UHGV virus genome: UHGV-0869939
Origin: a virus
DNA: 25,864 nt
Direction: 5' to 3' (one strand)
Shown here: positions 2,491 to 25,270 of the stretch, piece by piece
How positions within the stretch are numbered: the stretch's first letter is position 1
Layout: each line of letters begins with the position of its first letter
Position numbers and translations under genes: made by a program
The notes under the pieces: generated by a model
Told to the model about the DNA's origin: nothing
Seen by the model: the letters and a program-made list of their open reading frames with translations, nothing else
Databases searched by the model: none

Positions 2491-2505
2491 TTACCACAAC
2501 GGTAA
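2491..2505. promoter_or_regulatory. TTACC-N5-GGTAA palindromic site (copy 1 of 6)
   Basis: TTACCACAACGGTAA, about 20 bp upstream of the terminase small subunit ATG; preceded by TACTAT, followed by a TTACC half-site. Confidence 0.6.
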
Positions 2506-2522
2506 CTATTACCACGGTGGTT

Positions 2523-3122
2523 ATGATGCCTGCTGAACCTAAAACCTATAAACGCAAATCAACGCAATTTAAGCCACTAACAGCAATGCAGGAGGCTTAT
2601 TGCCAGTCATACATCAAAACGCCTGAAAACCAGACTCAGGCAGCGATTAACGCAGGATTCTCCCCAAATACAGCGGCAGTTAAAGCCAGTGTCATGATGC
2701 GCGATGAACGCATTCAAAAACGGATTGCCGAGTTGATGGAGGAGCGCAACAAACGAATGCGCGTCAGTGCTGATTACGTTCTCATGCGCCTGGTGGAGAT
2801 CGACCAGATGGACGTGATTGACATTCTCAACGACGATATGAGCATCAAGCCGGTCTCGGAATGGCCTAAGGTCTGGCGGCAGTACCTGACAGGTTTCGAA
2901 CTGGCCGACATGTTCGAAGGCCGTGGAGACGAGAAAGAGCTGGTTGGCATCCTCAAAAAAATTAAATGGCCTGACAAGGTGAAGAACCTCGAACTGATTG
3001 GTAAGCACGTCGACGTCAACGCATTCAAAGAACGCCTGGATGTTAATGTGAATGTGACAATTGCTGATCGCATAGCGGCAGCCAGGAAGAGACTGAAAGA
3101 ACGTCAGGATGGCAATCAGTGA
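2523..3122 (+). CDS. Terminase small subunit
   Basis: Sits directly upstream of, and overlaps, the large terminase; HTH-like AYCQSYIKTPENQTQAAINAGFS segment typical of small terminases. The track ORF begins at a TTG at 2445; tandem ATGs at 2523/2526 after GGTGG are more plausible. Confidence 0.65.
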   Translation: MMPAEPKTYKRKSTQFKPLTAMQEAYCQSYIKTPENQTQAAINAGFSPNTAAVKASVMMRDERIQKRIAELMEERNKRMRVSADYVLMRLVEIDQMDVIDILNDDMSIKPVSEWPKVWRQYLTGFELADMFEGRGDEKELVGILKKIKWPDKVKNLELIGKHVDVNAFKERLDVNVNVTIADRIAAARKRLKERQDGNQ

Positions 3123-4594
3123 CAGATACAGCGTTATCTCCTGAAGAGCAGTTAATCGAGGATATTGCAGGGTTCACTCACGATCCGCTTGGCTATGCCC
3201 TCTATGCGTTCCCATGGGGGGAAGAGGGGACTGAACTGGCACATGCCACCGGCCCACGTCAGTGGCAGGCTGATGCGTTCCGAGAGATACGTGATCACCT
3301 GCAGAATCCAGAGACGCGATATCAGCCGCTTATGCTGGCACGTGCTTCTGGTCACGGTATTGGTAAATCCGCATTCATCTCAATGCTGATCAACTGGGGC
3401 ATGTCCACTTGCGAGGATTGTAAGGTCGTGGTGACCGCCAACACCGACAACCAGCTACGAACGAAGACCTGGCCGGAAATTATCAAGTGGTCGAACCTTG
3501 CTATCACGAAAGACTGGTTTACCTGTACCGCTACTGCGATGTACAGCAATGATCCTGGGCACGACAAGCGGTGGCGAGCTGACGCAATCCCCTGGTCTGA
3601 GCACAACACTGAGGCATTCGCCGGACTACACAACGAGCGCAAACGCATCATCGTGGTATTCGATGAAGCGTCGAACATTGCGGATCTGGTGTGGGAAGTT
3701 GCTGAGGGTGCGCTTACGGACGAAGACACTGAGATTATCTGGGTGGCGTTCGGAAACCCTACACGTAATACCGGGCGTTTTCGCGAATGTTTCCGCAAAT
3801 ACAAACACCGCTGGAAAACTGCGCAGATTGACAGCCGGACGGTGGAAGGCACTAACAAACAGCAGTTGCAGAAATGGGTTGATGACTACGGGGAAGATAG
3901 CGACTTCGTTAAAATCCGTGTGCGCGGCATATTCCCGGATGCATCTGAATTGCAGTTTATCCCTACCGGACTTACTGACGAGGCAATGAAACGGGTGGTC
4001 ACCGCTGCGCAGGTTGCACATGCTCCGGTGATAATCGGCGTTGACCCGGCATACTCCGGTGTTGATGACGCGGTGATATATCTGCGGCAGGGGCTGCACA
4101 GTAAGGTGCTGTGGACCGGCAACAAGACCACTGACGATCTGATTATGGCGAAGCGTATCGCTGACTTTGAAGACCAGTACCAGGCTGACGCAGTGTTCAT
4201 CGACTTCGGTTACGGAACTGGTCTGAAGTCAATCGGTGATGGCTGGGGTCGTACATGGCAACTTGTTCCGTTCGGTGGCGCGTCTACTGACCCGCAGATG
4301 CTCAATAAGCGCGGGGAGATGTTCAACTCATGCAAGACATGGCTGAGGCTGGGCGGCATGCTTGATGACCAGGAAACAGCGGACGACCTGTCGGCGGCAG
4401 AGTACAAAGTTCGAGTGGACGGTAAAATCGTTATCGAACCGAAGGAAGATATCAAGGAGCGGCTTGGGCGTTCTCCTGGTAAAGGCGATGCGCTATTGCT
4501 GACGTTTGCTTTCCCTGTGTCGAAGCGTCTGCGAATTCCAGGTCAGCAGAACCAGCAAGGCAAGGCCATTACAGATTACGATCCCTATGCTTAA
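3119..4594 (+). CDS. Terminase large subunit
   Basis: 491 aa; Walker A-like SGHGIGKS, Walker B-like IIVVFDEASNI, C-terminal nuclease-like VIIGVDPAYSG...DDAVIY; GTG start overlaps the upstream stop. Confidence 0.9.
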   Translation: MTDTALSPEEQLIEDIAGFTHDPLGYALYAFPWGEEGTELAHATGPRQWQADAFREIRDHLQNPETRYQPLMLARASGHGIGKSAFISMLINWGMSTCEDCKVVVTANTDNQLRTKTWPEIIKWSNLAITKDWFTCTATAMYSNDPGHDKRWRADAIPWSEHNTEAFAGLHNERKRIIVVFDEASNIADLVWEVAEGALTDEDTEIIWVAFGNPTRNTGRFRECFRKYKHRWKTAQIDSRTVEGTNKQQLQKWVDDYGEDSDFVKIRVRGIFPDASELQFIPTGLTDEAMKRVVTAAQVAHAPVIIGVDPAYSGVDDAVIYLRQGLHSKVLWTGNKTTDDLIMAKRIADFEDQYQADAVFIDFGYGTGLKSIGDGWGRTWQLVPFGGASTDPQMLNKRGEMFNSCKTWLRLGGMLDDQETADDLSAAEYKVRVDGKIVIEPKEDIKERLGRSPGKGDALLLTFAFPVSKRLRIPGQQNQQGKAITDYDPYA

Positions 4595-4620
4595 TCCGCT
4601 GGTGGGGATAATGTCGTTGA

Positions 4621-4638
4621 TATCCTCTGGTGAGGATA
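4621..4638. promoter_or_regulatory. Palindrome TATCCTC-N5-GAGGATA
   Basis: Inverted repeat in the intergenic region after the terminase large subunit gene; an extra GGATA lies at 4606-4610. Confidence 0.25.
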
Positions 4639-4644
4639 AAACAA

Positions 4645-4670
4645 AGCCAGCTCATAGGCTGGCTGTTTGT
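4645..4670 (+). terminator. Rho-independent terminator candidate after terminase
   Basis: Stem AGCCAGC/GCTGGCT with loop TCATAG, followed by GTTTGT. Confidence 0.5.
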
Positions 4671-4680
4671 GACATGTCAC
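4669..4680. promoter_or_regulatory. Perfect 12-bp palindrome GTGACATGTCAC (copy 2 of 2)
   Basis: Identical to 2401-2412 including flanks (TTGTGACATGTCACG); lies 4 bp beyond the stop of the minus-strand 4685..4981 gene. Confidence 0.4.
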
Positions 4681-4684
4681 GGTG

Positions 4685-24137: not shown

Positions 24138-24152
24138 TTACCTTTAAGGTAA
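24138..24152. promoter_or_regulatory. TTACC-N5-GGTAA palindromic site (copy 5 of 6)
   Basis: TTACCTTTAAGGTAA, 20 bp upstream of the ATG at 24173, preceded by a GATATT -10-like hexamer. Confidence 0.6.
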
Positions 24153-24172
24153 TGTTATTGTGAGGAAAAGCA

Positions 24173-24853
24173 ATGGAAGTTTTCTGGATAGTTGTTGGTG
24201 TGGTTGCGGTGATTATTTACGTTATCAACCAGAACAAGACTAAGATCTCTGATCGTACGGTCGTTAATCATAACAAAACGATAAAGACCGAAGATGGGGA
24301 GATAACGATTAATCGTACACAGGTGATAGAACACACCTCTACTCAGTTTCAAAAAACTGGAGGTAATGCGCCTAATATTTCCGCACCTCCTGCTTATGAT
24401 AGTGCGATAATCCAGACATATTATAAACAGCAGGAGTTAGCAAAAGAGAGGCAACTGATTCAGCCAAAGCCATTTACAGCTGAGCTTCCACCTGGAGTGT
24501 CAACGCGTCCGGCATATCATGGAAGATTCCCTGGTGATGACACATCGTCTCAGTCACCTAAAAAAGCACCTCAGGCAGTATCAGAGCCAGCAAGAATACC
24601 TTCTGTATCGCCGTCAAAAGAAGAATCATCTAACGAAGTTTCAAGTGCCCGCAAGCAGTGTTTGCGATGCAGAATAACCCTTCCATATGAAAAATTCAGG
24701 AAATCGTCAAAAAATCCAGATGGATTGACTAAGTGGTGTGCAAGGTGTCTCGATGGCCCAAAGAATACACGCCATATGAAGTGGTGCCCAATTTGTAATG
24801 TCCGCAGAAAACGAACCAGTTTTACCCTAATAATCAAAATGCGGATGGCTTAA
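24173..24853 (+). CDS. Membrane-anchored protein with tandem zinc-ribbon-like repeats; reading frame broken near 24802-24805 (probable full extent to 24900)
   Basis: N-terminal TM helix FWIVVGVVAVIIYVI; C-terminal repeat CLRC...FRKSSKNPDGLTKWCARC; a second copy (CPIC...NQFYPNNQNADGLMAWCKTCW) continues in the +2 frame and ends at TAG 24898-24900, right at a terminator. Confidence 0.5.
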   Translation: MEVFWIVVGVVAVIIYVINQNKTKISDRTVVNHNKTIKTEDGEITINRTQVIEHTSTQFQKTGGNAPNISAPPAYDSAIIQTYYKQQELAKERQLIQPKPFTAELPPGVSTRPAYHGRFPGDDTSSQSPKKAPQAVSEPARIPSVSPSKEESSNEVSSARKQCLRCRITLPYEKFRKSSKNPDGLTKWCARCLDGPKNTRHMKWCPICNVRRKRTSFTLIIKMRMA

Positions 24854-24899
24854 TGGCATGGTGCAAAACGTGCTGGGACGAGCACAAAGCGAAACGATA

Positions 24900-24925
24900 G
24901 GCCGCTCTTGCGGCCTTTTCTTTAT
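24900..24925. terminator. Bidirectional rho-independent terminator
   Basis: GGCCGC-TCTT-GCGGCC followed by TTTTCTTTAT; lies between convergent genes. Confidence 0.6.
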
Positions 24926-25179
24926 GTGGTTTGTTTTCGTAGTTGTTCGGCACAATAGTCGAGATGTGTTTGCAGATCCTGCATAGACATCTGTGAGCTG
25001 GTGACGTAGTTAATCAGTGCAGTCAGTTCGGCAAGTGGGCCATCGACATTAAATCCATCCTTATCGAGATCCCGGAGTAATTTCATCAAGTGCGATCCCT
25101 CCACCAGTGACCTGACGCCTCCCGGCGTGTGAATCCTTTCGGTAAATCCGTCTTCCAGTGGATAGTGATACTGCTGCAT
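24922..25179 (-). CDS. Small protein homologous to the antirepressor C-terminal domain; candidate SOS-induced antirepressor or immunity modulator
   Basis: 85 aa from the ATG at 25179 with GGAGAAG RBS; the upstream in-frame ATGs at 25302/25281 would place the LexA box and the operator inside the coding sequence; aligns with residues about 130-218 of the 23117..23773 product. Confidence 0.55.
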   Translation of the reverse strand: MQQYHYPLEDGFTERIHTPGGVRSLVEGSHLMKLLRDLDKDGFNVDGPLAELTALINYVTSSQMSMQDLQTHLDYCAEQLRKQTT

Positions 25180-25198
25180 CTTATCTTCTCCATGCAAT

Positions 25199-25218
25199 AA
25201 CTGTATATTTATACAGTA
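25199..25218. promoter_or_regulatory. LexA (SOS) box
   Basis: AACTGTATATTTATACAGTA, CTGT-N8-ACAG core, near-identical to the enterobacterial consensus TACTGTATATATATACAGTA; 20-40 bp upstream of the ATG at 25179, overlapping a TATAAAT -10-like element. Confidence 0.7.
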
Positions 25219-25255
25219 ACAAATAATTTGTTTGCTATCCAGCACGTTTTGCAAA

Positions 25256-25270
25256 TTACCCGAAAGGTAA
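25256..25270. promoter_or_regulatory. TTACC-N5-GGTAA palindromic site (copy 6 of 6)
   Basis: TTACCCGAAAGGTAA between the divergent small antirepressor-domain gene and the tail-fibre gene, about 105 bp upstream of the tail-fibre ATG. Confidence 0.6.

What the first reader, a model, noticed from the sequence alone, without database searches (positions are those of the whole stretch)
2491..25270. Six copies of a 15-bp palindrome TTACC-N5-GGTAA in front of late and accessory operons
Exact TTACC-N5-GGTAA sites occur at 2491-2505 (terminase), 5579-5593 (gp6.7-like/portal block), 23030-23044 (two-gene operon), 24045-24059 and 24138-24152 (antirepressor / zinc-ribbon protein divergent region) and 25256-25270 (tail fibre / small antirepressor-domain gene). 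All six are intergenic, and several are preceded by a -10-like hexamer (TACTAT or GATATT). A 15-bp palindrome with 10 fixed positions should occur by chance far less than once in 26 kb, so this looks like the operator set of one dimeric regulator. I do not recognise it as the site of lambda CI, P22 C2/Mnt/Arc or LexA, and the regulator itself is not identified (possibly outside the window, possibly the basic 108-aa protein at 22661..22987).
Basis: seen in the sequence. Interest (0 to 1): 0.8.

Follow-up and report, generated by a model that had tools for sequence, protein, structure and literature searches.

The report
Prophage master-repressor operators, epsilon15-like phage
The six palindromes are real and far from chance, but they are the already-annotated binding sites of the main lysogeny repressor (Rep) of epsilon15/phiV10-like phages, which sits on nearly every promoter of the prophage, so the finding is correct but ordinary.

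Summary
There are six exact TTACC-N5-GGTAA sites (0.02 expected), and all lie in the 7% of the window that is non-coding.

The window is an epsilon15/phiV10-like (Uetakevirus) temperate podophage. In the epsilon15 reference record the same 16-17 bp palindrome (ATTACC-N5-GGTAAT) is already annotated as "repressor / lysogeny" binding sites. Three of those annotated sites are at the same positions as here: before terS, before the gp3-portal block, and between ant and the tail fibre. Others flank the repressor gene.

Every relative examined carries 8-11 copies. They cluster on both sides of a homologue of the SPC32H Rep repressor (PDB 5D50). None was found in 108 kb of E. coli host DNA.

The motif follows Rep. 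It is present wherever the recognition helix reads (N/T)LVNRW and absent from distant DBD homologues. It does not follow the 108-aa protein, which is missing from most relatives. It does not follow the regulator encoded before terS either: phage ZF40 has a 66%-identical copy of that regulator and no sites.

The window itself encodes Rep's LexA-controlled antirepressor Ant.

At most sites a -10-like hexamer ends on the first T of the palindrome, which suggests promoter occlusion.

Verdict: already known, low interest.

The parts
2491..2505 (.). Operator 1 (TTACCACAACGGTAA) at the terS / late-operon promoter.
   Evidence: Exact match. It is orthologous to the epsilon15 protein_bind 'repressor' feature at 12-27, and to sites in phiV10 (87), Tyrion (67), SPC32H (12) and PAT1 (23196).
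2509..2523 (.). Imperfect second operator (TTACCACGGTGGTTA, one mismatch), 18 bp centre-to-centre from operator 1. It overlaps the terS Shine-Dalgarno sequence.
   Evidence: An imperfect second site is retained at the same offset in epsilon15, Tyrion and EC.W1-9. The tandem spacing resembles the 17-bp tandem at OR. Its conservation could also be due to the ribosome-binding site.
2483..2491 (+). Extended -10 element TGgTACTAT. Its last T is the first T of operator 1, so the predicted start point lies inside the operator.
   Evidence: Sequence. The TGnTACTAT form is conserved in phiV10, Tyrion, epsilon15, SPC32H and PAT1. This is an inference and the promoter has not been mapped.
2454..2471 (+). 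Intrinsic terminator that ends the upstream (early-right) operon just before the terS promoter.
   Evidence: Terminators are annotated at the equivalent place in phiV10 and epsilon15.
5579..5593 (.). Operator between the leftward tRNA-Arg gene and the rightward gp3-portal block.
   Evidence: Exact match. It is orthologous to the epsilon15 'repressor' feature at 2931-2947.
5593..5622 (-). Predicted leftward sigma-70-like promoter, TAGACA-18-AATTAT. Its -10 ends on the operator, and it points toward tRNA-Arg(tct) at 5180-5256(-).
23030..23044 (.). Operator in front of the 108-aa / YafO-like two-gene operon (22987 down to 22162, - strand).
   Evidence: Exact match. The same site is present in L005 and TL-2011b.
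23044..23072 (-). Promoter-like TTGCAG-17-TACTAT. Its -10 ends on the first T of the operator.
   Evidence: Sequence. It is conserved in TL-2011b although the downstream genes differ.
24045..24059 (.). Operator at the leftward promoter of the isrK - C4 - AntA-type antirepressor unit.
   Evidence: Exact match. Orthologous sites are in phiV10 (20497), Tyrion (21393), EC.W1-9 (27891) and TL-2011b (26595).
24059..24088 (-). Sigma-70-like promoter TTGATT-18-TATCAT that abuts the operator.
   Evidence: By eye, the same geometry with diverged sequence is seen in phiV10 (TTGCAA-17-TATATT), Tyrion (TTGTAA-17-TATTAT) and EC.W1-9 (TTGAAA-17-TATTAT).
23823..24008 (-). Two Rfam small RNAs downstream of that promoter: isrK (23932-24008) and C4 antisense RNA (23823-23907). 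They are followed by the AntA::Ant-C gene at 23117-23773(-).
   Evidence: (67.7 and 61.2 bits, both above gathering score).
24138..24152 (.). Operator 20 nt upstream of the ATG of the 226-aa zinc-ribbon protein gene (24173-24853, + strand). It lies 93 bp, about 9 helical turns, from the 24045 operator.
25256..25270 (.). Operator in the divergent ant / tail-fibre control region.
   Evidence: Exact match. It is orthologous to the epsilon15 'repressor' feature at 19895-19911 and to sites in SPC32H (20013), Tyrion (21776) and PAT1 (3817).
25201..25216 (.). LexA box CTGTATATTTATACAG upstream of ant.
   Evidence: exact CTGT-N8-ACAG. The flanks give AACTGTATATTTATACAGTA.
24922..25179 (-). ant: an 85-aa antirepressor, the partner that inactivates Rep.
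   Evidence: E = 1.3e-47 over its full length to the 5D50 chain E 'Anti-repressor protein'. Identity to SPC32H Ant is 88%.

Best explanation
The six palindromes are operators of the phage's master lysogeny repressor Rep, of the epsilon15 gp38 / SPC32H Rep family. Rep has an N-terminal HTH DNA-binding domain with recognition helix NLVNRW, and its gene lies outside the window.

In the lysogen, Rep occupies the 17-bp site ATTACC-N5-GGTAAT. This site is placed so that the last two bases of a sigma-70 -10 hexamer (..AT) are the first bases of the operator. Bound Rep would therefore cover roughly -8 to +8 and keep RNA polymerase off the promoter.

The window's sites appear to gate these units:
- the terS late promoter;
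- the region between tRNA-Arg and gp3-portal;
- the 108-aa/YafO-like operon;
- the isrK-C4-AntA antirepressor unit;
- the 226-aa zinc-ribbon protein gene;
- the ant/tail-fibre control region.

On DNA damage, LexA leaves its box in front of ant. Ant is then made and takes the Rep tetramer apart, so all operators are freed together.

What is shown here: the sites, their conservation, their co-occurrence with Rep, the homology of Rep and Ant to the solved SPC32H proteins, and the existing epsilon15 annotation. What is inferred: that Rep physically binds these sites in this phage, the promoter positions, and repression by occlusion.
For: 1. The epsilon15 RefSeq record annotates seven copies of the same palindrome as protein_bind 'repressor / lysogeny'. 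Three are at the positions seen here (before terS, before gp3, between gp19/ant and the tail fibre) and three lie beside the repressor gene gp38.
2. In phiV10, epsilon15, SPC32H, Tyrion, PAT1, BUCT711 and an E. coli prophage, TTACC-N5-GGTAA is the top palindrome, with 8-11 copies. It flanks rep on both sides: one or two sites lie between rep and the cro-like gene, sometimes as a 17-bp tandem, and two or three lie on the other side, 62 bp apart.
3. The repressor of the closest complete prophage aligns over its full length to SPC32H Rep (5D50_A, E = 3.5e-42). The window's 85-aa gene is Ant (5D50_E, E = 1.3e-47) and has a LexA box upstream.
4. The DNA-binding domain is the best conserved part of Reps that are only 42-45% identical overall, and NLVNRW is invariant. 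That matches the invariant half-site.
5. Rep homologues in six further genera that keep (N/T)LVNRW have 4-7 sites within 8 kb, at fixed offsets from rep. Five distant DBD homologues with other recognition helices have none.
6. No site occurs in 107.8 kb of host DNA.
7. The symmetrised flanks read T-A-w-w-A-T ending on the first T of the site. Sigma-70-like promoters abut the sites.
8. Rep is described as a tetramer that binds palindromic sites and is disassembled by Ant (PMC9638917, PMC9986798). This fits the 17/18-bp tandems and the in-phase 62- and 93-bp pairs.
Against: - No binding data could be read. Kropinski 2007, Kim & Ryu 2013 and Kim 2016 are not held by the paper tool, so the epsilon15 annotation may itself be only a prediction.
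- The window does not contain rep, so the link rests on relatives about 97% identical to it.
- The Cro-like protein and the gp49-like regulator co-occur with the motif in all Uetakevirus genomes, so co-occurrence within the genus does not single out Rep.
- At 25256, and on the rightward side of 5579, no convincing -10 abuts the operator, so occlusion may not be the mechanism there.
- No site varies within the genus, so a true operator/recognition-helix covariation test was not possible.
Confidence: 0.87

Rival explanations
1. The palindrome is the site of a late-gene activator, namely the conserved 113-aa 'transcriptional regulator' (epsilon15 gp49-like, window 2063-2404) encoded just before the terminator and terS. 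On this reading it switches on the late and accessory operons.
For: The gene is annotated as a transcriptional regulator (phrog_536). It sits immediately upstream of the first site and is present in every Uetakevirus genome tested. Late genes do need some way past the terminator at 2454-2471.
Against: Pectobacterium phage ZF40 has a 66%-identical homologue but no Rep homologue and no exact site. Half of the sites in complete genomes flank rep and cro in an OL/OR-like layout and precede early genes. The sites at 2491 and 24138 end only 20 nt before the start codons, which leaves no room for a promoter downstream of an activator site.
Confidence: 0.04
2. The same operators are read mainly or additionally by the Cro-like small repressor (phrog_35, next to rep) during lytic growth. 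In that case the dispersed sites would serve lytic-phase timing rather than lysogenic silencing.
For: A 76-aa phrog_35 'transcriptional repressor' is encoded divergently from rep in all relatives. In lambdoid phages CI and Cro share operators (textbook knowledge).
Against: There is no evidence here either way. This reading is compatible with the main explanation rather than an alternative to it. The fixed offsets of the sites track rep homologues, but the cro-like gene usually travels with rep.
Confidence: 0.05
3. The palindrome is a site for a host transcription factor, or an RNA or DNA hairpin (attenuator, processing site or terminator), rather than a phage repressor operator.
For: It is a perfect inverted repeat. 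The TTTAA-spacer versions can fold as a short hairpin (fourth sequence).
Against: No exact site occurs in 107.8 kb of host chromosome, and the motif is shared by phages of at least eight host genera. The stem is only 5 bp with 2 G-C pairs and has no T-run. The spacer is not conserved apart from a central A/T. The sites occur irrespective of the direction of transcription. The palindrome does not match the LexA pattern, and the true LexA box lies separately at 25201-25216.
Confidence: 0.02

Closest known systems
Repressor-binding sites of Salmonella phage epsilon15 (gp38) and the Rep/Ant switch of SPC32H (PDB 5D50, 5D4Z)
   Same: The palindrome is identical (ATTACC-N5-GGTAAT). The genome positions match (terS, gp3, ant/tail fibre). 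The Ant protein is the same (88% identical), ant has a LexA box, and Rep is homologous in near-identical relatives.
   Different: The E. coli (phiV10-type) Rep is only about 42% identical to the Salmonella one. This phage adds three operators in an accessory region that epsilon15 lacks (23030, 24045, 24138). The phiV10-type records do not annotate the sites.
Phage P1 C1 repressor with many operators dispersed over the genome, and its immI module (c4 antisense RNA - icd - ant)
   Same: One master repressor has operators scattered across the genome in front of many separate operons, and does not control only an OL/OR pair. A C4-family antisense RNA lies upstream of an antirepressor gene. The comparison with P1 rests on general knowledge.
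   Different: P1 C1 operators are asymmetric 17-mers and C1 is unrelated to Rep (from memory, not tested here). Here the sites are perfect palindromes read by an HTH protein reported to be a tetramer.
Lambda CI / P22 C2 operators
   Same: They are 17-bp two-fold symmetric operators overlapping sigma-70 promoters, occur in multiple copies on either side of the repressor gene, and are read by an HTH repressor.
   Different: Lambda-type operators are confined to the immunity region and late genes are controlled indirectly through Q. Here operators also sit directly on the late, tail-fibre and moron promoters. Rep is inactivated by an antirepressor and not by RecA-stimulated self-cleavage (PMC9638917, citing Kim 2016).
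Mycobacteriophage L5/L1 gp71 'stoperators'
   Same: There are many repressor sites spread through the prophage, including the late regions (PMC1934351 abstract: multiple operator DNAs).
   Different: Stoperators are asymmetric and, as far as I recall, orientation-dependent sites within transcribed regions. The sites here are symmetric, strictly intergenic and promoter-proximal.

Membership tests
Uetakevirus (epsilon15/SPC32H-type) Rep operators | The sequence ATTACC-N5-GGTAAT is identical to sites annotated as repressor-binding in the epsilon15 reference genome. | tested here: met
   Searches give the seven annotated epsilon15 sites, all (A)TTACC-N5-GGTAA(T). One search gives the six window sites with the same half-sites. 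One search gives the consensus wATTACC-wwWww-GGTAATw from 77 unique sites.
Uetakevirus (epsilon15/SPC32H-type) Rep operators | The positions are orthologous to the annotated sites (before terS, before gp3/portal, ant/tail-fibre divergent region). | tested here: met
   One search shows alignable flanks and the same neighbouring genes in the window, phiV10, epsilon15, Tyrion, SPC32H and BUCT711.
Uetakevirus (epsilon15/SPC32H-type) Rep operators | The genome encodes a Rep homologue whose gene is flanked by the same sites. | tested here: inconclusive
   rep lies outside the 25.9-kb window. The feature is met in every complete relative (5D50_A E = 3.5e-42) and in six further genera. No record identical to the window was found; the best match had 92% coverage at 97.4% identity.
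Uetakevirus (epsilon15/SPC32H-type) Rep operators | The cognate small antirepressor Ant is under LexA control. | tested here: met
   5D50_E, E = 1.3e-47; LexA box at 25201-25216, 22 nt upstream of the ant start.
Uetakevirus (epsilon15/SPC32H-type) Rep operators | Rep physically binds the palindrome. | not testable with these tools
   This needs EMSA, footprinting or ChIP. The primary papers were not retrievable.
LexA (SOS) boxes | CTGT-N8-ACAG consensus. | tested here: not met
   The palindrome has different half-sites and spacing. The only strong intergenic LexA box in the window is a separate element at 25201-25216.
Intrinsic terminators / RNA hairpins | A G+C-rich stem followed by a T-run, with the function tied to one transcribed strand. 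| tested here: not met
   None of the six sites is called by the terminator scan. The stem has 2 G-C pairs out of 5 and no T-tract.
Lambda-type immunity operators (OL/OR only) | Operators are confined to the two promoters that flank the repressor gene. | tested here: not met
   About half of the sites in complete genomes, and all six in the window, lie 6-30 kb from rep, in front of late and accessory units.

The most novel reading that the evidence does not exclude
Rep may be a whole-genome silencer rather than a lambda-style two-promoter switch. On this reading it sits directly on the late (terS), tail-fibre-region and moron promoters and uses helically phased operator pairs (17/18, 62 and 93 bp) for tetramer bridging. 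It would also hold down a second antirepressor unit of P1 immI type (isrK + C4 RNA + an AntA::Ant-C fusion). Once LexA-controlled Ant starts to remove Rep, that second antirepressor would be derepressed and would lock the switch into lytic growth.
Probability: 0.4. Interest if true: 0.4.

Novelty: already known. Interest (0 to 1): 0.18.

Why it matters
The result adds little beyond annotation. It shows that the unannotated phiV10/TL-2011b-type E. coli prophages, which are common in EHEC, APEC and commensal strains, use the same operator set as epsilon15 and SPC32H. It also shows that this set extends to their accessory genes: a YafO-like toxin operon, a second antirepressor unit, and a zinc-ribbon protein.

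The practical use is a 17-bp pattern that marks Rep-controlled promoters in this phage group and helps to delimit transcription units and morons.

The layout is a mildly interesting design. One antirepressor-sensitive tetrameric repressor appears to sit directly on late and moron promoters. This idea is already implicit in the epsilon15 record.

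Tried and rejected
1. The 108-aa basic protein (22661-22987) as the regulator. Rejected: tblastn finds it in only one of eight relatives that all keep the motif. It has no Pfam or NCBIfam match and sits upstream of a YafO-like toxin.
2. The gp49-like regulator (2063-2404) as the binder. Made unlikely by ZF40. 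It has no Pfam, NCBIfam or PDB match.
3. Covariation of the operator with Rep inside the genus. Not possible, because all Uetakevirus genomes share the same half-site although their Reps are 42-79% identical. A coarser test replaced it: sites are present when the recognition helix is kept and absent when it differs.
4. Finding the window's own genome. None of the 5,426 complete E. coli genomes holds it; the best match has 92% coverage at 97.4% identity.
5. Literature. The three primary papers are not held. Text searches for the motif string found nothing relevant. The ZX5 paper does not mention operators.
6. ATNTGGTT as a second motif. It is not significant in the window on its own, with 7 matches against 3.7 expected. 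It is kept only as a cross-genome observation.
7. A class I/II activator geometry for the palindrome. Rejected for 2491 and 24138, where the ATG lies 20 nt downstream of the site.

Full report
**Observation.** Dinucleotide-preserving shuffles give a mean of 0.02 and never more than one. With plausible gene boundaries, 7.3% of the window is non-coding and all six sites fall in it, which has a chance of about 1.6e-7. TTACC with a 5-nt gap is the most frequent 5-N-5 palindrome in the window.

**What the window is.** Megablast places the window among epsilon15-like temperate podophages (genus Uetakevirus). It is about 97% identical, in mosaic blocks, to EC.W1-9, TL-2011b, phiV10 and phiv142-3, and 77-81% identical to Enterobacter phage Tyrion, Klebsiella prophages and Salmonella phage epsilon15. 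The window runs from the end of the early-right region through terS, terL, portal, head and tail genes. It continues through a variable accessory region to the start of the tail-fibre gene.

**The motif is already annotated.** The epsilon15 RefSeq record carries seven protein_bind features labelled "repressor / lysogeny". Their sequences are all (A)TTACC-N5-GGTAA(T). Three lie at the positions orthologous to window sites:
- 12-27, before terS (window 2491);
- 2931-2947, before gp3/portal (window 5579);
- 19895-19911, between gp19 and the tail fibre (window 25256).

Three more lie just beyond the repressor gene gp38. My scan adds two adjacent copies between gp38 and the divergent cro-like gene, two copies 62 bp apart before the gene that follows the replication genes, and one before the lysis cassette. 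The phiV10 record annotates terminators but no operators.

**Conservation.** phiV10, TL-2011b, EC.W1-9, Tyrion, PAT1, SPC32H, Klebsiella phage BUCT711 and a guaA-integrated prophage of E. coli PS_131_S11 each have 8-11 exact copies per complete genome. These copies sit in the same set of intergenic positions. In the E. coli prophage locus all 11 copies lie inside the prophage. There are none in its 7.8 kb of flanks or in two further 50-kb pieces of the same chromosome. The half-sites are invariant, while the spacer and flanks diverge. The symmetrised consensus from 77 unique sites is wA-TTACC-wwWww-GGTAA-Tw, with A or T at the centre in 96% of sites.

**Which protein reads it.** The repressor of the closest complete prophage aligns end to end with the SPC32H repressor, whose structure is solved (5D50 chain A, E = 3.5e-42). 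Reps from the E. coli, Enterobacter, Klebsiella and Salmonella phages are only 42-79% identical overall. Their N-terminal DNA-binding domain is nevertheless the best conserved part, with an invariant NLVNRW helix. That fits an invariant half-site.

A scan of one genome per species found Rep homologues in Superficieibacter, Erwinia, Klebsiella, Citrobacter and Scandinavium that keep (N/T)LVNRW. All have 4-7 sites within 8 kb, at fixed offsets from rep (-70/-86, +640/+700, and a pair near -2400). Five distant DBD homologues with other helices (Paraburkholderia, Hydrogenovibrio, Thiomicrospira) have none.

The alternatives do worse. The conserved 113-aa regulator encoded before terS has a 66%-identical homologue in Pectobacterium phage ZF40. 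ZF40 lacks Rep and has no exact site.

I could not read the primary papers. Physical binding is therefore inferred, and I do not know whether the epsilon15 annotation rests on experiment.

**The partner in the window.** The 85-aa gene at 24922-25179(-) matches the SPC32H antirepressor Ant (5D50 chain E, E = 1.3e-47, 88% identical). A near-consensus LexA box (AACTGTATATTTATACAGTA) lies 22 nt upstream of its start. Secondary sources describe Rep as a tetramer that binds palindromic sites and is taken apart by a tetrameric Ant (PMC9638917, PMC9986798, both citing Kim et al. 2016). The window therefore holds the induction arm of the switch and many of its targets, but not the repressor gene itself.

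**How it probably works.** At most sites a -10-like hexamer ends on the first T of the palindrome:
- TGgTACTAT (an extended -10) before 2491, directly after a terminator;
- TTGCAG-17-TACTAT before 23030 on the minus strand;
- TTGATT-18-TATCAT before 24045 on the minus strand;
- TAGACA-18-AATTAT before 5579 on the minus strand
.

The same geometry appears at the leftward early promoter of relatives (TTGACA-17-AATTAT) and at the promoter after the replication genes (TTGATT-17-TTTAAT) (read by eye). At the 24045 position the -35 and -10 are kept at the same spacing in four lineages whose intervening sequence has diverged. The averaged flanks spell T-A-w-w-A-T. Rep bound there would cover about -8 to +8, so steric exclusion of RNA polymerase is the simplest mechanism.

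Tandem sites 17-18 bp apart occur at OR and at terS (2491 with the imperfect 2509). Pairs occur at 62 bp and, in the window, at 93 bp, which are about 6 and 9 helical turns. Both arrangements fit a protein with four DNA-binding domains.

For 25256, and for rightward transcription from 5579, I found no -10 abutting the operator. The mechanism there is open.

**Rivals.** A late-activator reading is unlikely for three reasons. ZF40 carries the candidate activator without any sites. Two of the sites end 20 nt before a start codon. Half of all sites in complete genomes surround rep and the early promoters. Shared use of the operators by the Cro-like protein is plausible and not exclusive of the main explanation. 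A host-factor or hairpin reading is not supported. There are no host sites, the stem is weak, there is no T-run, and the sites do not depend on strand.

**Comparison and novelty.** This is the epsilon15/SPC32H Rep operator set, in a phiV10-type E. coli phage. In logic it resembles P1 C1, which has many dispersed operators, more than lambda CI. It differs from P1 and from mycobacteriophage stoperators in being a perfect palindrome at promoters. The motif, its assignment to the repressor and its positions before late genes are already in a public reference record, so I rate it already known and of low interest. The three accessory-region operators (23030, 24045, 24138) are additions specific to this phage type.

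**Side observations.** The 24045 promoter leads into Rfam isrK and C4 antisense RNAs and then into a gene for an AntA N-domain fused to an Ant-like C-domain. This is a P1 immI-like module that appears to be under Rep control.

A second recurrent element, CCATAT(A/G)TGGTTT, lies 29-43 bp to the right of operators. In the window it precedes gp3 and the tail fibre, and in relatives it also precedes the lysis genes. It is followed by stable leader hairpins and remains unexplained.

Noticed in passing
window 23823-24008 (- strand): There are two Rfam small RNAs in tandem: isrK (23932-24008, 67.7 bits) and C4 antisense RNA (23823-23907, 61.2 bits). isrK ends in an intrinsic terminator (23938-23954). 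They lie between the operator/promoter at 24045-24088 and the AntA-type antirepressor gene, in a layout like P1 immI (c4-icd-ant) and Gifsy-1 IsrK. The 110-aa ORF at 23801-24133(-) that covers them has no family match and is probably not a gene.
   Followed up: partly
window 23117-23773 (- strand): This 218-aa protein joins an AntA/AntB N-terminal domain (PF08346) to a C-terminal domain that is 42% identical to the small SPC32H-type Ant at 24922-25179. It is a possible second antirepressor of Rep that is itself behind a Rep operator, which would give a feed-forward loop.
   Followed up: partly
window 5634-5646 and 25299-25311; phiV10 (L003) 3310, 20923, 24741, 33140; epsilon15 (L004) 2990, 19942, 24753, 33754: A second recurrent motif, CCATAT(A/G)TGGTTT (a CC-W6-GG palindrome plus a T-run), lies at a fixed 29-43 bp to the right of Rep operators. 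It occurs before gp3, the tail fibre, the lysis cassette and an early-right gene. A -10-like hexamer follows 12-18 bp downstream, and then a stable leader hairpin (tail-fibre leader -26.8 kcal/mol, z = -3.7; epsilon15 lysis leader -35.1 kcal/mol, z = -5.8, which the epsilon15 record annotates as an RNase III site). It may be the core of a distinct late-promoter class. It is not significant within the window alone.
   Followed up: partly
window 5180-5256 (- strand): A tRNA-Arg(UCU) gene lies on the strand opposite to the late genes (ARAGORN, and Rfam at 73 bits). It overlaps the 83-aa ORF at 4999-5250(+), which phiV10 annotates as gp04. A predicted leftward promoter abutting the 5579 operator points at it.
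   Followed up: partly
window 2063-2404 (+ strand): A conserved 113-aa 'transcriptional regulator' (phrog_536; epsilon15 gp49, N15 gp46-like) is encoded immediately before a terminator and the terS promoter. It has no Pfam, NCBIfam or PDB match. Homologues occur in ZF40 (66%), Yersinia, Vibrio and N15-like phages. Its role, whether late activator or antiterminator, is unknown.
   Followed up: partly
window 22162-22987 (- strand): A two-gene unit encodes a 108-aa protein of unknown function (phrog_5933) overlapping a YafO-family toxin-like gene (PF13957, below threshold; PGAP names its orthologue a YafO family toxin). It looks like a toxin-antitoxin-type moron behind its own Rep operator and a TTGCAG-17-TACTAT promoter.
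   Followed up: no
window 2445-2525: Annotations disagree on the terS start. phiV10 and PGAP use a 224-225-aa form starting at TTG 2445, which would run through the terminator hairpin and the operator. Homology to epsilon15, TL-2011b and Tyrion and the GGTGG Shine-Dalgarno sequence favour ATG 2526.
   Followed up: partly
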